Below, one piece after another: positions 21,983 through 38,394 of a DNA stretch of 64,000 nucleotides. The DNA is from an uncultured Verrucomicrobiae bacterium (GTDB lineage Bacteria; Verrucomicrobiota; Verrucomicrobiia; Palsa-1439), in NCBI GenBank assembly GCA_963713705.1, contig CAVQMY010000045.1:585-64584 (forward strand). Direction: 5' to 3'. The notes under the pieces were generated by a model. It did not search any database. It was given only the letters and a program-made list of their open reading frames with translations, and was not told where the DNA came from. Within the stretch, counting starts at the first letter, position 1. Each line of letters starts with the position of its first letter. The translations under genes were made by a program, and so were the position numbers.

Positions 21983-23251
21983 CAGGGCGATTGCATTTAG
22001 AAGTTGAGCAGGGAGGCGAGGTACTGGTGGTCCCAGCCGGCGGCCTTTTGTTTGGCGCGGATGCCCAGTTTGACTCGCTGGTCGCGGCGCAGTTGGTTCA
22101 GGCATAAGGCCCGCAGCGTGGCCAGGTTCTGCGCCGCGTTCTGCTGGCGCACGGCGCAGCGGTCTTCGCCCATCTGCACGTCCAGCACCCAGTGCAGGCA
22201 ATTCTCGATCTCCCAGTGGCCGCGCACCGCCGCCGCAAACCGCTCGACCTGCGCCGGCAGGCTGCCGAGATAGTAGCGCCGCTGCGTCGTCGATTTCCCC
22301 TGCACCTCCCGCACTGCTTCGACCATCCCGACGCTGCGTAAGGCTTCCCACTGGGGCCTGTCGGCCAGCCAAGCGATCGCTTCGGTAATCCAATAGCGAC
22401 GGGTCTCGATGCGCCCGTGATCCTTCTCCAGGGTCTGGGTGAATTGATGGGCGAGGCCAGCAAAACCGCGCGCGTGGGCGTCGTCCAGAAACGCTTGGAC
22501 TTCGGCGTGCAGCGTGCCCTGATTGCCTTTCAGTGCCAGCACGTAGTCGGCATCGGCCTCGTGAATCTCTTTGGCCACGGTCTTTTGGCAGCCCATCGCG
22601 TCCACCGTCACCACACAGCCGGCCAATTCCAGCGCCCGGAGCAGCGGGGGCAGTGCGGTGATCTCGTTGCTGTGGTCGTCCACCTTCAGTTGCCCCAGCA
22701 CCAAGCGATTCCGGGCCGCCCAGACGTTGACCAGGTGGATCGGCCCGTGCCCGCGCGCCCGACTGTGCCGCAGCGTCTTGCCATCCAACGCCACCAATTC
22801 GCCGACGACGACCTGGCGCAGGCTTTGCGTCCACGCCAGGAAACAGTCCCGAAACTTCGCCGGATCAATGAGCCCGAACACACGGTTGAAGGTGTCGTGC
22901 GAGGGAATGCCGTGCGGCAACGCCAGCCAGCTTTTGAACCACTCGGCCTTGCACCGACCGCACTGGGCGATTTCGGTGAAGCCCTCCGCACCGCAGAGCA
23001 TGGCGCAGACGGCGATCATCAGGATATCCAGCAACTCGTGGCGCTTGGCCGGGCCGACGCGCGGGTCGGGTCGTGGAGCGAAGTGGTCTTTCAAATTGCG
23101 GAACGAGGATCGTTGGTTTTGCATCCCCATCTTCCACCACAAATCCCCGGAAACCGGAAGCAAAAACTTGTCGTCGCAAACCGGCTCCACCGGCCCACTT
23201 ACAAAGAATTCCTTTCGCACCCCCCTGAAGAATCAAAATGCAATCGCCCTG
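21983..23251 (-). mobile_element. ISAs1-family insertion sequence, copy 1 (1269 bp)
   Basis: Terminal inverted repeats CAGGGCGATTGCATTT. A 10-bp direct repeat GGCCATTTAC flanks it at 21973-21982 and 23252-23261. Near-identical to copy 2. Confidence 0.85.
21997..23220 (-). CDS. ISAs1-family (H-repeat-associated) DDE transposase
   Basis: 407 aa: DDE_Tnp_1_assoc N-terminus (…DPRVGPAKRHELLDILMIAVCAMLCGAEGFTEI…) plus DDE core (…VTVDAMGCQ…YYLGSLPAQ…HWEIENCLHWVLDV…). Confidence 0.85.
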   Translation of the reverse strand: MRKEFFVSGPVEPVCDDKFLLPVSGDLWWKMGMQNQRSSFRNLKDHFAPRPDPRVGPAKRHELLDILMIAVCAMLCGAEGFTEIAQCGRCKAEWFKSWLALPHGIPSHDTFNRVFGLIDPAKFRDCFLAWTQSLRQVVVGELVALDGKTLRHSRARGHGPIHLVNVWAARNRLVLGQLKVDDHSNEITALPPLLRALELAGCVVTVDAMGCQKTVAKEIHEADADYVLALKGNQGTLHAEVQAFLDDAHARGFAGLAHQFTQTLEKDHGRIETRRYWITEAIAWLADRPQWEALRSVGMVEAVREVQGKSTTQRRYYLGSLPAQVERFAAAVRGHWEIENCLHWVLDVQMGEDRCAVRQQNAAQNLATLRALCLNQLRRDQRVKLGIRAKQKAAGWDHQYLASLLNF

Positions 23252-30702: not shown

Positions 30703-31206
30703 GTGGGAAACAAGAGATTGGGAGGATTCGCAGATGCCACTGACAGCCGAAAACATCGGGCAAACGGACGCGGTCAAGACGGCTGGCCAAGATGCCGTTC
30801 CGGCCCGCCGAGTTCCGTCATCCGCGTGCTGGCCATTGACGACAACGAGGAGTTCCGCAATCTCATCACCGAATTGCTGCGGCCCCTCGGATTCGACGTT
30901 GAGGCCGTCGCCAGTCCCGTAAAGGCCCTGGAAAAGTTCACCCAGCAGAAGGACAGGTTTCAGCTCGTGTTGCTCGACTACTACATGCCCCAGCTTGACG
31001 GCGCCAAGACGTTCGAGTGGTTAAAGAAGCTCAATCCGTCCGTGAAAGTCATCATTGTGTCCGGCGCGGAAGAACTGCGGCTCCGCCAGATCCTCGCTCA
31101 ACACCCGATCGATGGCTATATCCGCAAGCCGTTCCGCGTCCAGGAAGCCCTTCACATTATCCACCATGTGATGGCCAAATCCAGCGGCCGATCTACCGCT
31201 CCCTAG
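30703..31206 (+). CDS. Single-domain response regulator (CheY-like receiver); N-terminus uncertain
   Basis: …IRVLAIDDNEEFRNLITELLRPLGFDVEA…LVLLDYYMPQLDG…VIIVSGAEE…IRKPF…, a receiver domain with no output domain. An alternative ATG in another frame at 30734 suggests a possible frame error at the 5' end. Confidence 0.6.
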   Translation: MGNKRLGGFADATDSRKHRANGRGQDGWPRCRSGPPSSVIRVLAIDDNEEFRNLITELLRPLGFDVEAVASPVKALEKFTQQKDRFQLVLLDYYMPQLDGAKTFEWLKKLNPSVKVIIVSGAEELRLRQILAQHPIDGYIRKPFRVQEALHIIHHVMAKSSGRSTAP

Positions 31207-31293
31207 TGTGCTGTCCCTAACGCTTCGTTACAATGAATCGCTTCATTTTGACCAGATGGACATTGGAAAGGCATTTCAGTGACACCACACTAG
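31203..31293. repeat. 91-bp element, left copy of a perfect inverted-repeat pair
   Basis: CTAGTGTGCTGTCCCTAACGCTTCGTTACAATGAATCGCTTCATTTTGACCAGATGGACATTGGAAAGGCATTTCAGTGACACCACACTAG. The unit has its own terminal inverted repeats CTAGTGTGnTGTC/GACAnCACACTAG. It overlaps the response-regulator stop codon (TAG at 31204-31206). Confidence 0.8.
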
Positions 31294-31353: not shown

Positions 31354-31992
31354 TCACAAACTGCGCCGACGCCTGAGGAACGCGACAAGCGATACGCCGC
31401 CGAGCGCGGCCAGCAGAAACGTCGATGGCTCGGGAATGAACTCGAATGTGAAATTGTCCGTGACAAAGTCCTCCCCTCCACCAGAAAACCCTGCGCTTTG
31501 TCCGCCAAAAGAGTTGAAGTAAAGCCGGTCGACATCCAGATAATTAAAAGTGAACAAAGTTGGATTCGTCGCACTGGCAACGACGGTCTGATCGTAGAGC
31601 AGGTTTGTTCCGTCAAACCCTTGAACTTCGACATTCAAGTTGCTGTTCCAAGCGCCAGTCAGGTAAACGCTCAGGAAGTTGAAATTCGTCGACGAATCAA
31701 TCTCGGCGGGTGTGCCACCGGCATTAACGGCCACGTTGGAAGGTGACACCATGCCATAATAAATGCCGCTCAACCCCCCTCCGAGTACCGGGGGAAGGTT
31801 AGTCTCAAGAATCGCGTTCACAACTCCAAAATTACTCCAAACCAGTCCTTGATAGCCGTTTGGAATGTATTCTCCACTACCCGTTACATGGAGATCGTCG
31901 AAAGTGATGACGCTCTGCCCCTTGGTCGAAGCTGTTGAGAGGGCGAGCAATGTGAAACATATGAGAGACTGGAGGAACAACCTCGACTTCAT
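31354..31992 (-). CDS. PEP-CTERM-anchored secreted protein
   Basis: Signal peptide MKSRLFLQSLICFTLLALSTA… and the C-terminus FIPEPSTFLLAALGGVSLVAFLRRRRSL. The longer ORF reaching 32208 is probably read-through. Confidence 0.7.
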   Translation of the reverse strand: MKSRLFLQSLICFTLLALSTASTKGQSVITFDDLHVTGSGEYIPNGYQGLVWSNFGVVNAILETNLPPVLGGGLSGIYYGMVSPSNVAVNAGGTPAEIDSSTNFNFLSVYLTGAWNSNLNVEVQGFDGTNLLYDQTVVASATNPTLFTFNYLDVDRLYFNSFGGQSAGFSGGGEDFVTDNFTFEFIPEPSTFLLAALGGVSLVAFLRRRRSL

Positions 31993-32117
31993 AACAAGCG
32001 TCCTTATCTTTTCTCCACCGGAATCATAGCAGTAAACGGCGGTGGAATCCAGAGAATTCGGGGCAACCGTAGCTGGTGAAGCGCCTGCCCTAAAGCGGAG
32101 TGGGTATGTGTTCGTTG

Positions 32118-33929
32118 TCATTGGATTTTGCCGACGAGTGAAAAACACTGGGCGGTGGGACAGGGAGCATTCATGATGTTTATGACACTGATCTCGGAGC
32201 AGTCCCACGCCATTCCAGTGTTGGTGGCGTTCCCGTTCGGATCAGTGGCGGTATCAGGATCGGCGAATTTGATAAGGCACGCTCCACTGGCGCTGTAGCT
32301 GTACACACCGCCATTGGTGACCGGGCCAACGGCGATGCCCGCGTAGTTGGTGGCCAACACAGTCACATTCGAACTGTTGAATGTCGCATTGTACGACCCT
32401 CCCGCAGCGTTAAAGTTATCCGTATTGAAGTACAGATACAGGGTGCCGTTGCATTGGGCCGTAACAACGCTGCTTCCCCCGCCGGTTCCCAACTGGACGG
32501 TGCGCTGGCAACGGGTGCAGAACTGCAGCGGGCCTGCGGGGGTGTACTGGCTGATTTGGTTCGTCGCTCCCCCGTTGGTCACGTTGCCGATGGAGCCGTA
32601 GGAATTGTCGCCCCAGCCCCAATACTGGTTCGTGCCTTGATTGACCGTCATCGCCATGGCGTGCACGCCTCCAAAATAGGCATTCGTAGTGAAGACATTG
32701 CCTAAACCATCATCGGATCGGGGGGCGCTGACCCAGACGACGTTGGTGATGCCGGCCACCAACATCGGGTGGTTGGCGGAAGCGACCGCGCTGGTGTTGG
32801 TGCCCAGTTCCCCAAATGTGTTGTCCCCCCATGCGTAGACCTGGCCGTTGCTGGTCACGGCCAGCGTGAACCCGACGCCACCAGCGATCGCCACGACGTT
32901 GGACAGATTGGCCACCACTGTCGGCGCCGGGTCGTAGCCGCCAGTGGTACCATTCCCGAGTTCTCCAAGCCCGTTATCGCCCCAGGTCCACACCCGCTTG
33001 TCCGCGGTCAGGGCGATGGAGTGACCACCCCCGCCTACGCCCGCGTAGTTGTCGCCAGCCGCAATCGCAATCACGCTGGAGATGCCGGCGACCAGCGTAG
33101 GAAGATTCGTGGATGCATCTCGACCCGGCGTTGGAGTTGCACCGATCTCACCAACCTCGTTTCCGCCCCAGCCCCAGACGAAACCATTTGTATCCACAGC
33201 CAGGCTAAAACCGTTCCCAGCCGCTATGGCGACGATGAAAGTGCCTGTCGGAATCCGTGACTGAACCGGAGAATTGGTCGAAAGCGCGCCACCAAGATAC
33301 CCGGCCCCCAATTGCCCATTTCCAGTGCCGTCGGTGCCGTTCTGGTTGCTGCCCCAAGCCCAGACCGACCCGTTAGCGCACAACGCCAGCGTGTGCTGGT
33401 ACCCGGCGGCGACACTGACCACGTTAGTAAAGCCAAGGGGACCGCTGACCGGGAAAGGCACAGGGTACATTGAGCCAGAATAGGCCTGTTCGGACTCATT
33501 TCCGAGTTGTCCTTGGTCGTTTTCGCCGAATGTCCACACCGTCCCCGTGGCATCAACCACCACCGTATAGTCGTCCCCACCAGCGGCGACCACTGCCGCG
33601 TTGGTGATGGTTTGAACTCCACATGACGTGGCGTTCGCCACGTCGCTCGGGTACGGTAGATACGGCTCCACGTAGCTACCGTCTGCCCGCTGCATGTTAC
33701 TGTCCAAACCGTCACCCAAATCTCCGTCACTGTCGCCCCAAGCCCAAAGAGTACCATCCTGTCTCAATGCCACGCTGCTTTCTCCTCCTGCGGCAATCGG
33801 GCTGCCGAGCAGGCGCTGGACGCGATAAAATCGTTGTGTGACGGTGCTCCCATCGTTGTTGGTGGTGGCGGTGTCCGTCCACGAGGTTACACTGGCATTG
33901 GTAGCGCCCCAAACGTAGGCTTTGGGCAT
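32118..33929 (-). CDS. RCC1-repeat (seven-bladed beta-propeller) protein
   Basis: 603 aa. More than six repeats of the …G.V.AWG.N..GQLG… type (WGWGGNEVGEIG, WTWGDNGLGELGNG, YAWGDNTFGELGTN). No signal peptide in frame. Confidence 0.75.
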   Translation of the reverse strand: MPKAYVWGATNASVTSWTDTATTNNDGSTVTQRFYRVQRLLGSPIAAGGESSVALRQDGTLWAWGDSDGDLGDGLDSNMQRADGSYVEPYLPYPSDVANATSCGVQTITNAAVVAAGGDDYTVVVDATGTVWTFGENDQGQLGNESEQAYSGSMYPVPFPVSGPLGFTNVVSVAAGYQHTLALCANGSVWAWGSNQNGTDGTGNGQLGAGYLGGALSTNSPVQSRIPTGTFIVAIAAGNGFSLAVDTNGFVWGWGGNEVGEIGATPTPGRDASTNLPTLVAGISSVIAIAAGDNYAGVGGGGHSIALTADKRVWTWGDNGLGELGNGTTGGYDPAPTVVANLSNVVAIAGGVGFTLAVTSNGQVYAWGDNTFGELGTNTSAVASANHPMLVAGITNVVWVSAPRSDDGLGNVFTTNAYFGGVHAMAMTVNQGTNQYWGWGDNSYGSIGNVTNGGATNQISQYTPAGPLQFCTRCQRTVQLGTGGGSSVVTAQCNGTLYLYFNTDNFNAAGGSYNATFNSSNVTVLATNYAGIAVGPVTNGGVYSYSASGACLIKFADPDTATDPNGNATNTGMAWDCSEISVINIMNAPCPTAQCFSLVGKIQ

Positions 33930-34032
33930 CCACTGGGTGTTGGTGCTGAGCGAGTTGGCGGAGAAGACCAGATAGCGGAAGAACGGTGATTATATACTTG
34001 CTTTAAGTTGTTACCCATGGTAGGTTCCTTGC

Positions 34033-34419
34033 ATGAAAACACCCGTTGAGTTCCCTGAGACTTTGAAGGATGCGATTGGCTATTTCTCTGACGCTGATCG
34101 CTGCGTTGAATTTATGAAGGCCGTGCAATGGCCTGACGGCAAGGTGATATGCCCTCACTGCAAGGCGGAGAGCGTGTCCTACATGCCCAAGGTGCGGCGA
34201 TGGTACTGCCGTGGGTGTGACGGTCAATTCTCGGTCAAGGCTGGCACGATATTCGAGGAGTCGCCCCTTGGGTTTGACAAGTGGTTGCCTGCCGTGTGGA
34301 TGATACTCAACGCCAAGAATGGGATTAGCTCGTGTGAGTTGTCCCGCGCTCTTGGTGTCACGCAAAAGACCGCGTGGTTCATGCTGCACCGGATACGTGA
34401 AGCTGATCGGGCAGGGTGA
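34033..34419 (+). pseudogene. IS1595-family (ISXO2-like) transposase, N-terminal fragment only
   Basis: 128 aa: zinc-ribbon plus …KWLPAVWMILNAKNGISSCELSRALGVTQKTAWFMLHRIREA…, the ISXO2-like N-terminal domain. The catalytic DDE part is absent. Confidence 0.65.
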
Positions 34420-34639
34420 CACGAGGCCAGAGCTTCCGACGCCAAGGCCGTGGGAAACGCAAGAAACGAAAAAGCGAGCAATGAGGCGGAAGCCGTTCGG
34501 TGGGTTGGGTTGGAATCCATTACCGGCATGAGGCACTATGGCCTTCATAGAAAAAGCCAAAGAAGTTCTGACAGAAAAAGCGTTGTCACTATGGACAGGA
34601 GTAGTAGCAGCACTGCTGCTATTCGTAGGAAAAGTGATT

Positions 34640-34730
34640 CTAGTGTGGTGTCACTGAAATGCCTTTCCAATGTCCATCTGGTCAAAATGAAGCGATTCAT
34701 TGTAACGAAGCGTTAGGGACAGCACACTAG
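34640..34730. repeat. 91-bp element, right copy (exact reverse complement of 31203-31293)
   Basis: 100% identical inverted copy. It supplies the last 5 codons (LVCCP) and the stop of the 34713..35246 gene. Confidence 0.8.
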
Positions 34731-35246
34731 ACGCAGCGCTTCCCACGCTCTCTTCCCCAACGTTCCAGAAATTATTGCTCCCCCTATTAGGAATATCCAT
34801 TCTAGCCAATGTGGGACTGATCGCATCTGTTTGGCTTTTGAGCCGTCGCCCGAAATTGTTTCCCCGTTTTGGTATCCTGTGGGACTCAAAACATCAAGCC
34901 CACTGTCCGGGATGCGATAGGCCGTTATCAAATTATTCACAGCGGTCGTATGGCGGTACATGGGGCTGGTGGTGCCATCACTGTAAACAGGAAGCGTTTC
35001 TTCGAGATGATAAAGGAAATCGCCTAACTCTTGATGAAGCTCGAAAGCAACTGTAGGCAGTGCTGATAGCCCCACTGCGAGAACCAAAACGAAGCCGATA
35101 TTGACAAAACCTTTCGCCTTTCGTTCTCTCGCCCGCTTGCGGGCCTCCTTGTCCTCACGTTCGCGGCGCAATACCTCGGTTTTCGGAACCGAAACTATCT
35201 TCCGTATCCCGGCCAAGAATTTCTCTCTCTCCGAATGTTCGTTCAT
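34713..35246 (-). CDS. Small membrane protein (two predicted TM helices), downstream partner of the HEPN-motif gene
   Basis: 177 aa. Charged N-terminus (REREDKEARKRARERKAK), then TM1 (GFVNIGFVLVLAVGLSALPTV), a soluble middle and TM2 (WIFLIGGAIISGTL). Its start overlaps the stop of the upstream gene (ATGA), which suggests translational coupling. Confidence 0.5.
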   Translation of the reverse strand: MNEHSEREKFLAGIRKIVSVPKTEVLRREREDKEARKRARERKAKGFVNIGFVLVLAVGLSALPTVAFELHQELGDFLYHLEETLPVYSDGTTSPMYRHTTAVNNLITAYRIPDSGLDVLSPTGYQNGETISGDGSKAKQMRSVPHWLEWIFLIGGAIISGTLGKRAWEALRLVCCP

Positions 35247-36205
35247 TTCTTAGGCTCCATTACACGATTGGACAGCGACACCATGAATTTCTTAACCGAA
35301 TTGAAAACCACATCGGCCTCATCCGCACCATAACTTCGCCGAGAATGCATGATCTCGTTTCGGTCTACGTTTTTGAACTTCTGCAAGTCGTCTAGGAGAC
35401 CATGATAAAATCGAAAGTTCTCTGTTCGGCAAGGTCCCTTCTTCGCATTTTCCAAGGAGACGATTTTCTTTTTCAATTCCTTCAGCACTTCGTCCCACAT
35501 CGCATATTCAACCGGAGTTGTAACAGGTTTTCCCGCGTCGCTGATCACACGCTTGCAATGCGGGCATTTCTGCTCTCTTTTCTGCTTTGTGATTTTCACT
35601 TTGAGATGCTTCGCCAAGGCCCGCATTCCAAATTCGGCAACACGCATCAAATGAAAGACCGCAGCGGTGGGAAGATCGGCGGCAAGGCAGTTCCCCGCAT
35701 TCTCGATGTCGTCTCGGGCGGATTTGAAGTTCTCGTAAACCGATTCTCCGAAAAGCCTGTTGTTCTCGAAATACGCATGTTGTGATTCGGGGATGTAAAC
35801 AAATTTGCGGGCTTCCATTTCGTTGTAAATAGCAATTCGCGCGCGCTCCAGAAACGACTTGATGGTTTCGTTGCTCTTTGGCTTGTATCCGGTTGCGGGG
35901 TCTTTCAGGGGCCAGCTTAGATCAATTACCAGCCTTTCTAGCTGGTCTCTTCCATCCGTGTTGCCCATGAACGCCAAGGCGTTATTCAGGGCACGAAGGG
36001 AAATCTCGATCTCCGAGGCATCTTCCTTGCAAATCTCTTCTGAGCCGGGCTTTTGATTTAGAATGCGAATCCAACGGGATAGATCGTCCATGCCCTGCAC
36101 AACATGATGTGCCCAAAATCGAATCATGGACAATAAGCTTAACAATCGGCCCGGACACAGTACAGGCTCTTGGATGGTGGCTTCAGTTTGATCAGTGACG
36201 CGCAT
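35243..36205 (-). CDS. HEPN-motif (Rx4HxR) protein, putative RNase of an Abi/toxin-like module
   Basis: 320 aa. The C-terminal region …FKNVDRNEIMHSRRSYG… matches the HEPN Rx4-6H consensus with a trailing R. There is a mid-protein CPHCKR Zn-knuckle-like motif. The ISAs1 copy sits 68 bp upstream. Confidence 0.45.
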   Translation of the reverse strand: MRVTDQTEATIQEPVLCPGRLLSLLSMIRFWAHHVVQGMDDLSRWIRILNQKPGSEEICKEDASEIEISLRALNNALAFMGNTDGRDQLERLVIDLSWPLKDPATGYKPKSNETIKSFLERARIAIYNEMEARKFVYIPESQHAYFENNRLFGESVYENFKSARDDIENAGNCLAADLPTAAVFHLMRVAEFGMRALAKHLKVKITKQKREQKCPHCKRVISDAGKPVTTPVEYAMWDEVLKELKKKIVSLENAKKGPCRTENFRFYHGLLDDLQKFKNVDRNEIMHSRRSYGADEADVVFNSVKKFMVSLSNRVMEPKK

Positions 36206-36272
36206 TCATCGCATGCACACCAAAAGCAAGATGTTCCTCGCGTCATTTGCTTCATTGCAGGACTCTAATCCG

Positions 36273-37541
36273 CAGGGCGATTGCATTTTGATTCTTAAGG
36301 GGGGTGCGAAAGGAATTCTTTGTAAGTGGGCCGGTGGAGCCGGTTTGCGACGACAAGTTTTTGCTTCCGGTTTCCGGGGATTTGTGGTGGAAGATGGGGA
36401 TGCAAAACCAACGATCCTCGTTCCGCAATTTGAAAGACCACTTCGCTCCACTACCCGACCCGCGCGTCGGCCCGGCCAAGCGCCACGAGTTGCTGGATAT
36501 CCTGATGATCGCCGTCTGCGCCATGCTCTGCGGTGCGGAGGGCTTCACCGAAATCGCCCAGTGCGGTCGGTGCAAGGCCGAGTGGTTCAAAAGCTGGCTG
36601 GCGTTGCCGCACGGCATTCCCTCGCACGACACCTTCAACCGCGTGTTCGGGCTCATTGATCCGGCGAAGTTTCGGGACTGTTTCCTGGCGTGGACGCAAA
36701 GCCTGCGCCAGGTCGTCGTCGGCGAATTGGTGGCGTTGGATGGCAAGACGCTGCGGCACAGTCGGGCGCGCGGGCACGGGCCGATCCACCTGGTCAACGT
36801 CTGGGCGGCCCGGAATCGCTTGGTGCTGGGGCAACTGAAGGTAGACGACCACAGCAACGAGATCACCGCACTGCCCCCGCTGCTCCGGGCGCTGGAATTG
36901 GCCGGCTGTGTGGTGACGGTGGACGCGATGGGCTGCCAAAAGACCGTGGCCAAAGAGATTCACGAGGCCGATGCCGACTACGTGCTGGCACTGAAAGGCA
37001 ATCAGGGCACGCTGCACGCCGAAGTCCAAGCGTTTCTGGACGACGCCCACGCGCGCGGTTTTGCTGGCCTCGCCCATCAATTCACCCAGACCCTGGAGAA
37101 GGATCACGGGCGCATCGAGACCCGTCGCTATTGGATTACCGAAGCGATCGCTTGGCTGGCCGACAGGCCCCAGTGGGAAGCCTTACGCAGCGTCGGGATG
37201 GTCGAAGCAGTGCGGGAGGTGCAGGGGAAATCGACGACGCAGCGGCGCTACTATCTCAGCAGCCTGCCGGCGCAGGTCGAGCGGTTTGCGGCGGCGGTGC
37301 GCGGCCACTGGGAGATCGAGAATTGCCTGCACTGGGTGCTGGACGTGCAGATGGGCGAAGACCGCTGCGCCGTGCGCCAGCAGAACGCGGCGCAGAACCT
37401 GGCCACGCTGCGGGCCTTATGCCTGAACCAACTGCGCCGCGACCAGCGAGTCAAACTCGGCATCCGCGCCAAACAAAAGGCCGCCGGCTGGGACCACCAG
37501 TACCTCGCCTCCCTGCTCAACTTCTAAATGCAATCGCCCTG
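36273..37541 (+). mobile_element. ISAs1-family insertion sequence, copy 2 (1269 bp)
   Basis: Same inverted repeats CAGGGCGATTGCATTT. A 10-bp direct repeat CTCTAATCCG flanks it at 36263-36272 and 37542-37551. It differs from copy 1 at only a few positions. Confidence 0.85.
36304..37527 (+). CDS. ISAs1-family DDE transposase (copy 2)
   Basis: 407 aa, ~99% identical to 21997..23220 (differences include P->L and G->S). Confidence 0.85.
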   Translation: MRKEFFVSGPVEPVCDDKFLLPVSGDLWWKMGMQNQRSSFRNLKDHFAPLPDPRVGPAKRHELLDILMIAVCAMLCGAEGFTEIAQCGRCKAEWFKSWLALPHGIPSHDTFNRVFGLIDPAKFRDCFLAWTQSLRQVVVGELVALDGKTLRHSRARGHGPIHLVNVWAARNRLVLGQLKVDDHSNEITALPPLLRALELAGCVVTVDAMGCQKTVAKEIHEADADYVLALKGNQGTLHAEVQAFLDDAHARGFAGLAHQFTQTLEKDHGRIETRRYWITEAIAWLADRPQWEALRSVGMVEAVREVQGKSTTQRRYYLSSLPAQVERFAAAVRGHWEIENCLHWVLDVQMGEDRCAVRQQNAAQNLATLRALCLNQLRRDQRVKLGIRAKQKAAGWDHQYLASLLNF

Positions 37542-38394
37542 CTCTAATCCGGCTCGCAACTTTACGCAAGTATATAATCCCCGGAAGAACTGGCAGGACT
37601 GCCAGGTGATCGTGGTAGACCCGCTCGCGTTCCGTACGAACGTTTGTCACGTAGAACGCCTGAAGCAGGTTTGTCAGGGTACAGGGATCGCTTCCACCGC
37701 CACCGTCATCATCCATAGCCATAAACCCGCGACTCATGCTGGCGGCGCTGGCGGTTGCCGCTTCTGCCGCCGCACATTGGGCCTCAAGATTATTCCAGTA
37801 GGTATCCCGAGAGCCAACGTCCATCAGCCACGCATGCGTGATCACCTGCGGCACGGAGAATTGCGTATAGCCTTCCTCCACCAGCGTCTCCCAATTCGTA
37901 TAGTTGATTCCGAAGAGAACGCACGAAGGATACAGGTTGGCTTCGTAGACCTGCCACGAGGGAAACCAGTCTGGCACGGTGAATTCGGTCAGGGTTTCAT
38001 CCGACCACGGCTGCAACACCGTCACGGTATTCGACTGCGGCCAGAGCGTGACCCAAAGGGGCCAAGCGTTCACGCTCTCCAGGGAGGTCGGAGCGGAATT
38101 CGTGATCCCGGCCAGTCCCGTTGGCAGATTGGCTGTATTCGCCCACACGATGGTCATCGGCTGGAACTGCACCGGGAAGAACGTCCCGGGCGCCCAGACC
38201 CACGAGCCAATCGGGTAGTTGTAGCCCTCCAGATACAGACCGACAAGGTCGGTGGTATTGGTCAACAGCAATTCCGACTCAGGTTGAGCCGAGGGATTCT
38301 CTTCCAATTGCGGAATGTCCGCCCGCACAGCAGTTAACGGGCACAGCAAGGCGGTAAGTGCTAGGCAAACGACCGGCGATGTCCGCTTCTCCAT
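37417..38394 (-). CDS. Secreted hypothetical protein whose 3' end was altered by the ISAs1 insertion
   Basis: Signal peptide MEKRTSPVVCLALTALLCPLTAVRA. The frame runs into the IS at 37541. With the IS and one direct-repeat copy removed, the protein would end …ASRIRVLQ* three codons later. Confidence 0.55.
   Translation of the reverse strand: MEKRTSPVVCLALTALLCPLTAVRADIPQLEENPSAQPESELLLTNTTDLVGLYLEGYNYPIGSWVWAPGTFFPVQFQPMTIVWANTANLPTGLAGITNSAPTSLESVNAWPLWVTLWPQSNTVTVLQPWSDETLTEFTVPDWFPSWQVYEANLYPSCVLFGINYTNWETLVEEGYTQFSVPQVITHAWLMDVGSRDTYWNNLEAQCAAAEAATASAASMSRGFMAMDDDGGGGSDPCTLTNLLQAFYVTNVRTERERVYHDHLAVLPVLPGIIYLRKVASRIRAGRLHLEVEQGGEVLVVPAGGLLFGADAEFDSLVAAQLVQA

What the first reader, a model, noticed from the sequence alone, without database searches (positions are those of the whole stretch)
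34713..36205. Translationally coupled HEPN-motif protein plus two-TM membrane protein: candidate uncharacterised toxin/abortive-infection-like module
A 320-aa protein carries a canonical HEPN RNase motif near its C-terminus (…DRNEIMHSRR…, Rx4HxR) and a CPHC knuckle. Its stop overlaps the ATG (ATGA) of a 177-aa protein. That second protein has a highly charged N-terminus and two TM helices. The pair sits in a mobile-element hotspot. An ISAs1 copy lies 68 bp upstream. A 91-bp inverted repeat overlaps its 3' end. An IS1595 remnant is 300 bp away. This pairing is not a named system that I recognise. A HEPN nuclease with a membrane partner could act as an effector/sensor or a toxin/immunity pair.
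Basis: partly seen in the sequence, partly recalled or inferred. Interest (0 to 1): 0.7.

Follow-up and report, generated by a model that had tools for sequence, protein, structure and literature searches.

The report
HEPN-like cargo inside decayed IS1595 transposon
The proposed toxin/membrane-protein pair is really the cargo gene (a new HEPN-type putative RNase) and a small accessory-peptide gene of a broken IS1595-family "transporter" insertion sequence, one of a widespread clade of tiny transposons whose cargo slot holds defence- and toxin-type genes.

Summary
Both ORFs lie inside one IS1595-family element (33985-37582) with 26-nt terminal inverted repeats and a perfect 8-bp target duplication. 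The element has decayed: its transposase is internally deleted, an ISAs1 copy sits 58-66 nt upstream of the 320-aa gene, and a 91-nt MITE-like repeat has landed inside it.

The "177-aa two-TM partner" is not a dedicated partner. Only its first ~46 residues are conserved. That peptide accompanies the transposase in 51 of 67 sampled elements, whatever the cargo (DUF3800, methylase, PIN, RelA/SpoT, Mrr and others). The rest of the ORF evolves neutrally (dN/dS 0.99) as the shadow frame of an antisense Zn-ribbon gene (dN/dS 0.23).

The HEPN assignment and a defence/toxin-like role are supported. The toxin/immunity-pair reading is not.

The parts
33977..33984 (.). 8-bp target-site duplication (GGAAGAAC), transposase-side copy
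   Evidence: Identical to 37583-37590
33985..34010 (.). Terminal inverted repeat of the IS1595-family element, transposase side (GGTGATTATATACTTGC...)
   Evidence: Inverted repeat I1, 89% complementary over 27 nt. The same termini bracket the homologous elements in L001 and L002 and in 38 of 41 other loci.
34033..34419 (+). IS1595 transposase remnant, N-terminal 128 aa (Zn ribbon + HTH)
   Evidence: Pfam Zn_ribbon_IS1595 E=5.5e-8. 87% identical to residues 1-124 of the intact L001 transposase, dN/dS 0.11.
34391..34531 (+). IS1595 transposase remnant, C-terminal ~46 aa in another frame. Codons ~125-307 are deleted.
   Evidence: phmmer match to residues 308-353 of the L001 transposase
34538..34657 (+). 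5' fragment of the TM + Zn-ribbon protein gene (MAFIEKAKEVLTEK...), cut off by the 91-nt insertion
   Evidence: 77% identical to the N-terminus of the intact 149-aa L001 homologue
34640..34730 (.). 91-nt MITE-like palindromic element (CTAGTGTG...CACACTAG) inserted into the Zn-ribbon gene. It supplies the stop codon of ORF-B.
   Evidence: Absent from L001 at this position. A 100% identical inverted copy lies at 31203-31293. Reported as inverted repeat I2.
34730..35056 (+). 3' part of the TM + Zn-ribbon gene (CPGC...CHHC), antisense to ORF-B
   Evidence: 60% aa identity and dN/dS 0.23 against L001. Homologues exist as stand-alone genes in L085-L087 and as clusters P0126-P0129.
34713..35042 (-). 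Non-conserved read-through tail of ORF-B (aa 69-177, includes 'TM2')
   Evidence: dN/dS 0.99 for ORF-B aa 47-177, window against L001. Absent from 32 of 35 peptide ORFs. The same antisense phase is stop-free in stand-alone Zn-ribbon genes.
35043..35108 (-). ORF-B hydrophobic segment TM1 (aa 47-68), specific to a sublineage
   Evidence: A single TM follows the peptide in the window, L001, L083, L088 and L090. It lies mostly outside the antisense gene, overlapping only its last 14 nt.
35109..35246 (-). Conserved small basic peptide (ORF-B aa 1-46: ...FLAGIRKIVSVPKTEVLRRERE + K/R tail), an accessory gene of the IS clade
   Evidence: dN/dS 0.13. Found in 35 of 83 HEPN-sampled loci and 51 of 67 transposase-sampled loci. 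No Pfam family. ATGA overlap with the upstream gene.
35243..36205 (-). HEPN-like cargo gene, 320 aa: N-terminal helical domain (~aa 24-131) plus C-terminal HEPN-like domain (~aa 150-315)
35345..35362 (-). RNEIMH = Rx4H HEPN signature (R282-H287)
   Evidence: R282 and H287 are invariant and N283 is >=90% conserved in 42 sequences. In the model the motif sits in the loop just before the last helix.
35555..35566 (-). CPHC (aa 214-217) in a lineage-specific beta-hairpin insert
   Evidence: Present only in the closest relatives P0003, P0006, P0008 and P0011. Most family members lack the insert.
36264..37550 (+). Secondary insertion of an ISAs1-family IS (36272-37542, transposase 36304-37527) with its 8-bp TSD TCTAATCC (36264-71 and 37543-50). 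It separates the cargo gene from the IS end.
   Evidence: Pfam DDE_Tnp_1_assoc and DDE_Tnp_1. 20-nt inverted repeats I4. TSD. A second copy lies at ~22000-23232.
37557..37582 (.). Terminal inverted repeat of the IS1595-family element, cargo side (...CAAGTATATAATCCCC)
37583..37590 (.). 8-bp target-site duplication (GGAAGAAC), cargo-side copy

Best explanation
Window 33985-37582 is a decayed copy of an IS1595-family 'transporter IS', meaning an insertion sequence that carries passenger genes between its inverted repeats.

The intact form is seen in L001: TIR, cargo gene, small peptide gene, convergent DDE transposase, TIR. It is about 2.0-2.8 kb long and makes 8-bp target duplications.

In the window the cargo is a 320-aa protein of a large, unannotated HEPN-superfamily family. 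The '177-aa partner' is the clade's own ~46-aa basic accessory peptide. In this sublineage the peptide has gained a membrane anchor and, lacking a stop codon, reads on through the shadow frame of an antisense Zn-ribbon gene.

The copy can no longer move by itself. About 180 transposase codons are deleted, ISAs1 has inserted upstream of the cargo gene, and a 91-nt MITE has inserted in the Zn-ribbon gene. The cargo gene is still intact and under purifying selection.

Shown here: the element boundaries, the architecture, the cargo exchange, the selection on each frame, and the HEPN fold and motif.

Inferred:
- The cargo protein is probably a metal-independent RNase using R282/N283/H287. It probably acts as a stress- or phage-triggered toxin (single-gene abortive infection or addiction function) that pays for the element's carriage, as the R-M, PIN, toxSAS and Mrr genes in the same slot of sibling elements would.
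- The peptide probably serves the transposon (DNA or RNA binding through its Lys/Arg tail, or regulation of transposition or cargo expression) and not as a specific immunity protein.
For: Element boundaries:
- The window has terminal inverted repeats and a perfect 8-bp TSD. L001 and L002 have the same termini with their own TSDs.
- 41 of 83 loci found through the HEPN-like protein have an IS1595 transposase within 2.5 kb, convergent with it. TIRs bracket both genes in 38 of those 41, and 13 TSDs were detected automatically.

Transposase-side sample:
- Of 80 loci, all 35 TIR-delimited elements are 1.84-4.5 kb.
- Their cargo is diverse: DUF3800 x5, N6_N4_Mtase x3, PIN x3, RelA_SpoT x2 (PADLOC PDC-S33, 5e-115), Mrr_cat x2, AAA_15/21, SocA_Panacea and HNH_2.
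- The peptide is present in 51 of 67 loci, in either orientation.

Cargo swap: L001 (HEPN-like) and L083 (DUF3800) share the left TIR at 25/25 nt and 82% DNA identity from the ORF-B region to the right TIR, but not the cargo gene.

Selection: dN/dS is 0.23 for the HEPN-like gene, 0.13 for the peptide, 0.99 for the ORF-B tail and 0.23 for the antisense Zn-ribbon gene.

HEPN assignment:
- Invariant R282 and H287.
- Pfam HEPN is the commonest match, hit by 11 of 42 members and collinear with profile positions 8-113 of 117.

Literature: transporter ISs are stated to be restricted to the IS1595 and IS66 families (TnCentral preprint 10.1101/2021.05.26.445724).
Against: - No activity data exist. Pfam HEPN matches stay below the curated cut-off (best 20.6 against 22 bits).
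- Foldseek against the PDB and a profile search of PDB sequences found nothing significant.
- No PADLOC model matches.
- A lone HEPN toxin with no identified antitoxin needs some other means of control.
- 39 of 82 family loci have no IS1595 transposase convergent within 4.5 kb downstream and no TIR core, so the family is not exclusively IS cargo.
- Co-variation between the HEPN-like protein and the transposase is only modest (Mantel r=0.28).
- The ORF-B frame is physically open for 177 codons. If the ATG is used, the long product would be made whether or not its tail is selected.
Confidence: 0.75

Rival explanations
1. One reading: a dedicated two-gene module. The HEPN nuclease is the toxin or effector, and the translationally coupled 177-aa two-TM protein is its immunity protein, sensor or membrane effector.
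For: - ATGA overlap of the two ORFs.
- A short same-strand ORF with the peptide motif directly follows the HEPN-like gene in 20 of 44 transposase-linked loci.
- The long form with a TM occurs in the window, L001 and L083.
- The frame is open more often than a synonymous-codon shuffle predicts.
- One plasmid-borne solo copy is followed by a 66-aa 2-TM ORF.
Against: - The tail has dN/dS 0.99 while the antisense gene has 0.23.
- The open frame is intrinsic to the antisense gene even where no peptide gene is attached.
- 32 of 35 peptide ORFs end after about 45-60 aa.
- The same peptide follows DUF3800 and many other cargoes, and in 29 of 51 cases it lies on the transposase strand.
- The L083 long form pairs with DUF3800, not HEPN.
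- Small TM ORFs next to solo copies occur at the background rate, 2/36 against 5.9%.
Confidence: 0.08
2. The HEPN-like protein is not host-beneficial cargo but a transposon function. It could be an RNase that regulates the convergent transposase transcript, or an addiction toxin that penalises loss of the element.
For: - About 55-60% of sampled family members sit next to a transposase: IS1595 type in 47 of 83 loci and an IS1-like type in 5 more (Pfam support in 3 of the 4 scanned).
- The arrangement is strictly convergent with gaps of about 170-250 nt in compact 2.0-2.2 kb elements.
- HEPN and transposase distances co-vary significantly (r=0.28, 0 of 2000 permutations).
- There is precedent for TA genes integrated in the transposition module of Tn3-family transposons (PMC7157771).
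Against: - The slot is freely exchanged for R-M, PIN, toxSAS, DUF3800 and other genes on closely related backbones.
- Only about 6 of 80 transposase-sampled elements carry the HEPN-like gene.
- 39 of 82 family loci lack a convergent IS1595 transposase and show no IS1595 ends; most of these have no transposase nearby.
Confidence: 0.15
3. The protein has a HEPN-like helical bundle but is not a nuclease. It could be an RNA- or ligand-binding or scaffolding domain, as in non-catalytic HEPN proteins.
For: - Sequence matches to curated HEPN models are sub-threshold.
- Helical bundles attract many non-specific structural hits when the whole protein is used.
- The loop carrying the motif is the least confident part of the model, with pLDDT about 61.
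Against: - Invariance of R282 and H287, near-invariance of N283, and a second conserved polar motif (G171-N172-C173) across 42 diverse members is the pattern of catalytic HEPN families.
- The best structural neighbours include the active RNase toxins LsoA and RnlA, and Csm6.
Confidence: 0.12

Closest known systems
Transporter IS (tIS) of the IS1595 family; from memory of ISfinder, the ISNwi1 subgroup with passenger genes
   Same: - DDE_Tnp_IS1595 plus Zn_ribbon_IS1595 transposase, short terminal inverted repeats and 8-bp target duplications, with passenger genes between the IRs.
- The TnCentral preprint states that tIS are restricted to the IS1595 and IS66 families.
- The observed ends GG..ATTATATACTTGAC and the 1.8-4.5 kb sizes fit my recollection of ISfinder's ISNwi1 entries (ends GGnnatTAT, 1750-4750 bp with passengers). 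This is memory, not verified here.
   Different: - In the searchable literature I found no description of what these passengers are.
- Here the slot is shown to hold a recurrent HEPN-like family, DUF3800 and assorted R-M/TA/defence-type genes, plus a conserved ~46-aa peptide gene in most elements.
- The window copy is a non-autonomous relic.
HEPN RNase toxins RnlA/LsoA (type II TA / anti-phage) and minimal HEPN proteins (AF0298, TT1696, HEPN-MNT toxins)
   Same: - An Rx4H motif sits just before the last helix.
   Different: - Sequence identity is below 20%, and there is no above-threshold profile match.
- There is no MNT, RnlB or Dmd-like partner.
- The N-terminal helical domain is distinct.
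- The genomic home is an insertion sequence, not a TA operon.
Toxin-antitoxin passengers of Tn3-family transposons (Lima-Mendez et al. 2020, PMC7157771)
   Same: Toxin-type genes, including HEPN, are embedded in a transposon next to the transposition genes.
   Different: - Those are complete two-gene TA pairs in large replicative Tn3 transposons.
- Here a single HEPN-like gene sits in a ~2-kb IS with a different transposase family, and no recognisable antitoxin is present.
Defence-gene cargo of Tn7-like transposons (Benler et al. 2021, recalled from memory, not checked here)
   Same: A variable cargo region of a transposon is populated by defence, R-M and TA genes.
   Different: Tn7-like elements are tens of kb long with multi-gene transposition machinery and site-specific targeting. 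These elements are 2-4.5 kb with one transposase and usually one to three cargo genes.

Membership tests
HEPN superfamily | Conserved Rx4-6H motif at the start of the last core helix | tested here: met
   R282 and H287 are invariant and N283 is >=90% conserved in 42 homologues. The motif lies in the loop immediately before the last helix of the model.
HEPN superfamily | Four-helix up-and-down bundle superposable on solved HEPN domains | tested here: met
   [not shown]
HEPN superfamily | Match to a curated HEPN profile above its threshold | tested here: inconclusive
   PF05168 is the most frequent match (11 of 42 members) and is collinear with profile positions 8-113 of 117. The best score is 20.6 bits against a cut-off of 22, and the window protein itself gives no hit.
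HEPN superfamily | Metal-independent endoribonuclease activity | not testable with these tools
   Requires biochemistry.
IS1595 family insertion sequence / transporter IS | DDE transposase with an N-terminal IS1595 zinc ribbon | tested here: met
   The window remnant matches Zn_ribbon_IS1595 at 5.5e-8. Intact homologues in L001, L083 and L090 carry PF12760 and PF12762. D140, D217 and E251 are invariant in 14 transposases.
IS1595 family insertion sequence / transporter IS | Terminal inverted repeats and 8-bp direct target repeats | tested here: met
   Window TIRs at 33985-34010 and 37557-37582, TSD GGAAGAAC. L001 and L002 TSDs. 38 of 41 loci have TIRs and 13 have an automatically detected 8-bp TSD.
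IS1595 family insertion sequence / transporter IS | Passenger genes located between the IRs (the tIS definition) | tested here: met
   The HEPN-like gene lies inside the TIRs in the window, L001, L002 and 38 other loci. 35 transposase-sampled elements measure 1.84-4.5 kb and carry cargo.
IS1595 family, ISNwi1 subgroup | End consensus GGnnatTAT and a DDEK catalytic signature (as I recall from ISfinder) | tested here: inconclusive
   The observed ends (GGGGATTATATAC, GGCAATAATATAC) and the conserved D, D, E...K/R fit my recollection. ISfinder and the 2009 family paper could not be consulted.
HEPN-MNT type II/VII toxin-antitoxin | Adjacent minimal nucleotidyltransferase (MNT) antitoxin | tested here: not met
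   No NTase domain in ORF-B, the antisense ORF or the neighbours. The compact elements contain only the cargo gene, the peptide gene and the transposase.
Abi_2 / AbiD-AbiF or other named defence systems | Match to the family or system models | tested here: not met
   No Abi_2 or other Abi Pfam hit. No PADLOC hit at E<=0.01 for the window proteins or for three other family members.

The most novel reading that the evidence does not exclude
A widespread clade of minimal (about 2-4.5 kb) IS1595-family transposons acts as shuttles for single-gene or very small defence/toxin cassettes, which are exchanged precisely between the left inverted repeat and a conserved ~46-aa basic peptide gene. That peptide would be a previously unrecognised IS-encoded accessory protein. 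The HEPN-like family (more than 8,000 sequence clusters, no curated family) would be a new, largely IS-borne, stand-alone RNase effector for abortive infection or element addiction.
Probability: 0.35. Interest if true: 0.7.

Novelty: new variant of a known kind. Interest (0 to 1): 0.5.

Why it matters
If this holds, some of the smallest transposons known routinely carry defence- or toxin-type genes. That gives a very cheap route for spreading such genes in soil and peat bacteria (Acidobacteriota, Verrucomicrobiota, Chloroflexota, Alphaproteobacteria).

It also does three practical things:
- It gives an unannotated protein family of more than 8,000 clusters a fold, a probable catalytic motif and a genomic context.
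- It identifies a conserved small peptide that may be a new transposition accessory factor.
- It gives a concrete example of how antisense shadow ORFs inside mobile elements produce false 'membrane partner' calls. Both frames here have been deposited as genes by different pipelines.

Tried and rejected
- Direct Pfam, NCBIfam and PADLOC scans of both window proteins gave nothing significant.
- The exact-sequence look-up of the NCBI protein P0001 failed.
- The afdb50 fold library was unavailable.
- A synonymous-codon shuffle suggested that the ORF-B frame is kept open by selection. I rejected this after finding the same antisense phase stop-free in stand-alone Zn-ribbon genes.
- I tried to show that the IS interrupted a host gene by restoring the pre-insertion sequence. 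The restored tail looks non-coding, so I make no claim.
- I tested whether solo family members pair with small membrane proteins, prompted by a plasmid example. The rate equals background.
- Literature searches found no prior description of HEPN or defence cargo in IS1595 elements. The 2009 IS1595 family paper is not held, and ISfinder cannot be queried, so prior listing of such elements there cannot be excluded.
Full report
**Observation**

The two minus-strand ORFs are real: 35243..36205 (320 aa) and 34713..35246 (177 aa). They share an ATGA stop/start overlap. The sequence DRNEIMHSRR is encoded at 35345-35362. An ISAs1-family IS (Pfam DDE_Tnp_1_assoc and DDE_Tnp_1) occupies 36272-37542, with 20-nt inverted repeats and an 8-bp duplication TCTAATCC. 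It lies 58-66 nt upstream of the 320-aa ORF's ATG. IS1595 transposase fragments lie at 34033-34531. No Pfam, NCBIfam or PADLOC family matches either protein significantly.

**The real unit**

A 27-nt inverted repeat (33984-34010 and 37557-37583) encloses the transposase remnant, both ORFs and the ISAs1 copy. It is flanked by a perfect 8-bp direct repeat, GGAAGAAC. So the element spans 33985-37582 (3,598 bp). Without ISAs1 and its duplication it is 2,319 bp.

The two closest homologues of the 320-aa protein sit in the same structure. L001 (690..3475, TSD GAAAATTG) has an intact 353-aa IS1595 transposase. L002 has TSD ATTGATTT. The genes are therefore inside a mobile element, not next to several.

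The window copy is a relic. Roughly codons 125-307 of the transposase are deleted. ISAs1 has inserted between the cargo-side end and the cargo gene. A 91-nt MITE-like repeat has inserted further in; an identical inverted copy lies at 31203-31293.

**How general is the association?**

The 320-aa protein has 249 homologues in the word-indexed search. An exhaustive profile search finds 8,196 cluster representatives, 3,950 of them at E<=1e-30. All are unnamed, and RefSeq plasmid copies are labelled 'hypothetical protein'.

In 83 loci from Acidobacteriota, Verrucomicrobiota, Chloroflexota, Nitrospirota, Planctomycetota and Alphaproteobacteria, 47 have an IS1595-type transposase in the fetched flanks (up to 6 kb). 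In 41 of those it is convergent and within 2.5 kb downstream. In 38 of the 41, inverted repeats with the core ..AATATACTTGAC.. bracket both genes. Exact 8-bp duplications were detected automatically in 13. The compact elements are only 2.04-2.2 kb.

Distances between the HEPN-like proteins and between the transposases co-vary significantly but modestly (Mantel r=0.28, 0 of 2000 permutations). Median identity is 27% for the HEPN-like protein against 52% for the transposase.

The other 39 loci show no IS1595 end motif: 0 of 39, against 19-28 of 43 for the transposase-linked loci under the same strict pattern. Five of the 39 carry a related ~320-350-aa transposase-like gene directly downstream; three of the four scanned hit Pfam's IS1 transposase model, one above the cut-off (L043, 31.6 bits).

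**The second ORF**

A profile of its N-terminus finds a short ORF in 35 of the 83 loci, usually 45-60 aa. The consensus is ..F..F.....SVPK.E...RE followed by a Lys/Arg-rich tail. In most cases it lies directly after the HEPN-like gene. Only the window, L001 and L083/L084 continue into a long form.

In those loci the tail runs antisense to a TM + Zn-ribbon gene. The window copy of that gene is split by the 91-nt insertion. It is intact in L001 and L083, and it occurs as a stand-alone gene in L085-L087.

dN/dS between the window and L001:

| Region | dN/dS |
|---|---|
| HEPN-like gene | 0.23 |
| ORF-B residues 1-46 | 0.13 |
| ORF-B residues 47-177 | 0.99 |
| Antisense Zn-ribbon frame | 0.23 |

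A synonymous-codon shuffle suggested the ORF-B frame is open more than expected. However, the same antisense phase is also stop-free across stand-alone Zn-ribbon genes that have no peptide gene opposite. The open frame is therefore a shadow-ORF property.

A single hydrophobic segment after the peptide (TM1) is shared by a small sublineage: the window, L001, L083, L088 and L090. It may be a genuine membrane anchor there. 'TM2' is not supported.

**Whose partner is the peptide?**

In L083/L084 and L088-L091 the same peptide gene and transposase follow a DUF3800 protein in place of the HEPN-like protein. L001 and L083 share the left inverted repeat (25/25 nt) and 82% DNA identity from the ORF-B region to the right end, but nothing across the cargo gene.

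Sampling from the transposase side gave 80 loci out of at least 599 relatives.
- All 35 TIR-delimited elements are 1.84-4.5 kb.
- The peptide is present in 51 of 67 loci with enough flank: 29 on the transposase strand and 22 on the cargo strand.
- The HEPN-like gene is present in about 6 of 80 and DUF3800 in about 10 of 80.

Forty-six other cargo ORFs include N6_N4 DNA methylases, Mrr and HNH nucleases, PIN domains, RelA/SpoT-like proteins (PADLOC candidate PDC-S33, E=5e-115), AAA_15/AAA_21 ATPases, a SocA/Panacea antitoxin, NA-iREase1 and several DUFs.

So the peptide belongs to the transposon backbone, and the gene upstream of it is an exchangeable cargo slot populated by conflict-system genes. 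Small membrane-protein neighbours of solo family members occur at the background rate: 2 of 36 against 5.9%. One plasmid example is an isolated case.

**Is it HEPN?**

R282 and H287 are invariant and N283 nearly so in 42 diverse members. A second motif, A-G171-N172-C173-L-A, lies at the end of the first core helix. AlphaFold models are confident: pLDDT 88 for the whole protein and 93.4 for residues 140-320.

Pfam's HEPN model is the most frequent match among family members (11 of 42). The matches are collinear with positions 8-113 of 117 but always sub-threshold, at most 20.6 against 22 bits.

I conclude that this is a new family of the HEPN superfamily. The CPHC (residues 214-217) lies in a beta-hairpin insert that most members lack.

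The conserved N-terminal motif (..RL.SL..MI..) lies upstream of Met39, the start used in the NCBI record. This supports the 320-aa start.

**Mechanism (inferred)**

The cargo protein most likely acts as a metal-independent RNase that is kept inactive until triggered. It would give the host abortive-infection-type protection, or penalise loss of the element. This is the same logic as for the R-M, PIN and toxSAS genes found in the same slot.

Precedents are TA pairs embedded in Tn3-family transposons (PMC7157771) and, from memory, defence cargo of Tn7-like elements.

The peptide, with its Lys/Arg tail and its constant association with the transposase, more likely binds nucleic acid to assist or regulate transposition or cargo expression. 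A transposon-intrinsic role for the HEPN-like protein (rival 2) cannot be excluded.

**What is known**

Transporter ISs are a recognised category, said to be restricted to the IS1595 and IS66 families (TnCentral preprint). From memory, ISfinder lists an ISNwi1 subgroup with GGnnatTAT ends and passenger-carrying members of 1.75-4.75 kb, which fits these elements. I could not verify this.

The HEPN superfamily survey (PMC3710099) mentions no transposase-linked family. Full-text searches found no description of HEPN or defence cargo in IS1595 elements.

**Verdict**

- The sequence observations are mostly right.
- The HEPN call is right.
- The 'HEPN plus two-TM partner' system is not real as proposed.
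- What is there is a decayed transporter IS whose cargo is a member of a large, uncharacterised, frequently IS-borne HEPN family.

Noticed in passing
window 34640-34730 and 31203-31293: A 91-nt palindromic MITE-like element (ends CTAGTGTG...CACACTAG, predicted hairpin -28.6 kcal/mol) is present in two 100% identical, oppositely oriented copies 3.4 kb apart. One copy interrupts the Zn-ribbon gene inside the IS1595 element. The target may be CTAG.
   Followed up: partly
window ~22000-23232 (- strand) and 36272-37542: A second, nearly identical ISAs1-family transposase copy lies in the same 64-kb window (phmmer E=1e-285). ISAs1 therefore appears recently active in this genome.
   Followed up: no
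L083 1340-2149; L088 2885-3814; L090 1730-2485: DUF3800 proteins occupy the same cargo slot, translationally coupled or closely spaced to the same small peptide gene, on IS1595 backbones up to 86% identical in transposase to the HEPN-carrying L001. DUF3800 is the commonest cargo seen from the transposase side.
   Followed up: partly
L007 1564-2628, L016 7058-7903, L031 1752-2717, L036 6576-7067, L043 7375-8370: In five loci without IS1595, the HEPN-like gene is followed on the same strand by an IS1-type transposase (Pfam DDE_Tnp_IS1; only L043 is above the cut-off). This suggests the family also rides with a second, related IS family. The ends of these putative elements were not mapped.
   Followed up: partly
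L092-L171 (e.g. L100 1182-1277 +, L130 4974-5057 -): The small basic peptide gene lies between the convergent transposase and cargo genes in either orientation: 29 on the transposase strand and 22 on the cargo strand. The reason for the flip is unexplained.
   Followed up: no
L085 629-1219, L086 1094-1651 and the window/L001/L083 homologues: One antisense phase of the TM + Zn-ribbon gene is free of stop codons over ~140 codons even in stand-alone copies. A simple synonymous-codon shuffle predicts 2.5-5.4 stops. The cause (codon-boundary TA avoidance or something else) was not determined.
   Followed up: partly
L100 1216-2427 (-), L148 1798-2928 (-): RelA/SpoT-domain cargo proteins match the PADLOC candidate defence family PDC-S33 at E=5e-115 for L100. 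They sit as single-gene cargo in 2.3-2.4-kb IS1595 elements.
   Followed up: no
window 37417-38394 (- strand): A 325-aa ORF with an N-terminal signal-peptide-like segment runs into the IS end. Its last ~57 codons are encoded by the IS1595 inverted repeat and ISAs1 end sequences (e.g. ...PGIIYLRKV...), so its annotated C-terminus is probably an insertion artefact.
   Followed up: partly
window 35243-36205: The NCBI/ENA gene call (P0001, 282 aa) starts at Met39. A conserved motif upstream (RLLSLLSMIRFW, shared with distant homologues) and a Logan call of 320 aa (P0252) indicate that the longer start at 36205 is correct.
   Followed up: yes
window 31354-33929 (- strand): The flanking host genes look like a PEP-CTERM-anchored protein (C-terminal ...IPEPSTFLLAALGGVSLVAFLRRRR) and a 603-aa protein with RCC1-like WGxNxxGQLG repeats. 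This fits a Verrucomicrobiota-type host. The assessment is by eye only.
   Followed up: no
L172 (Croceibacterium atlanticum plasmid NZ_CP011453.2) 3001-4171: A plasmid-borne solo copy of the HEPN-like gene sits next to repA/parB and is followed by a 66-aa ORF with two hydrophobic helices. This is an isolated case and not a family trend.
   Followed up: yes
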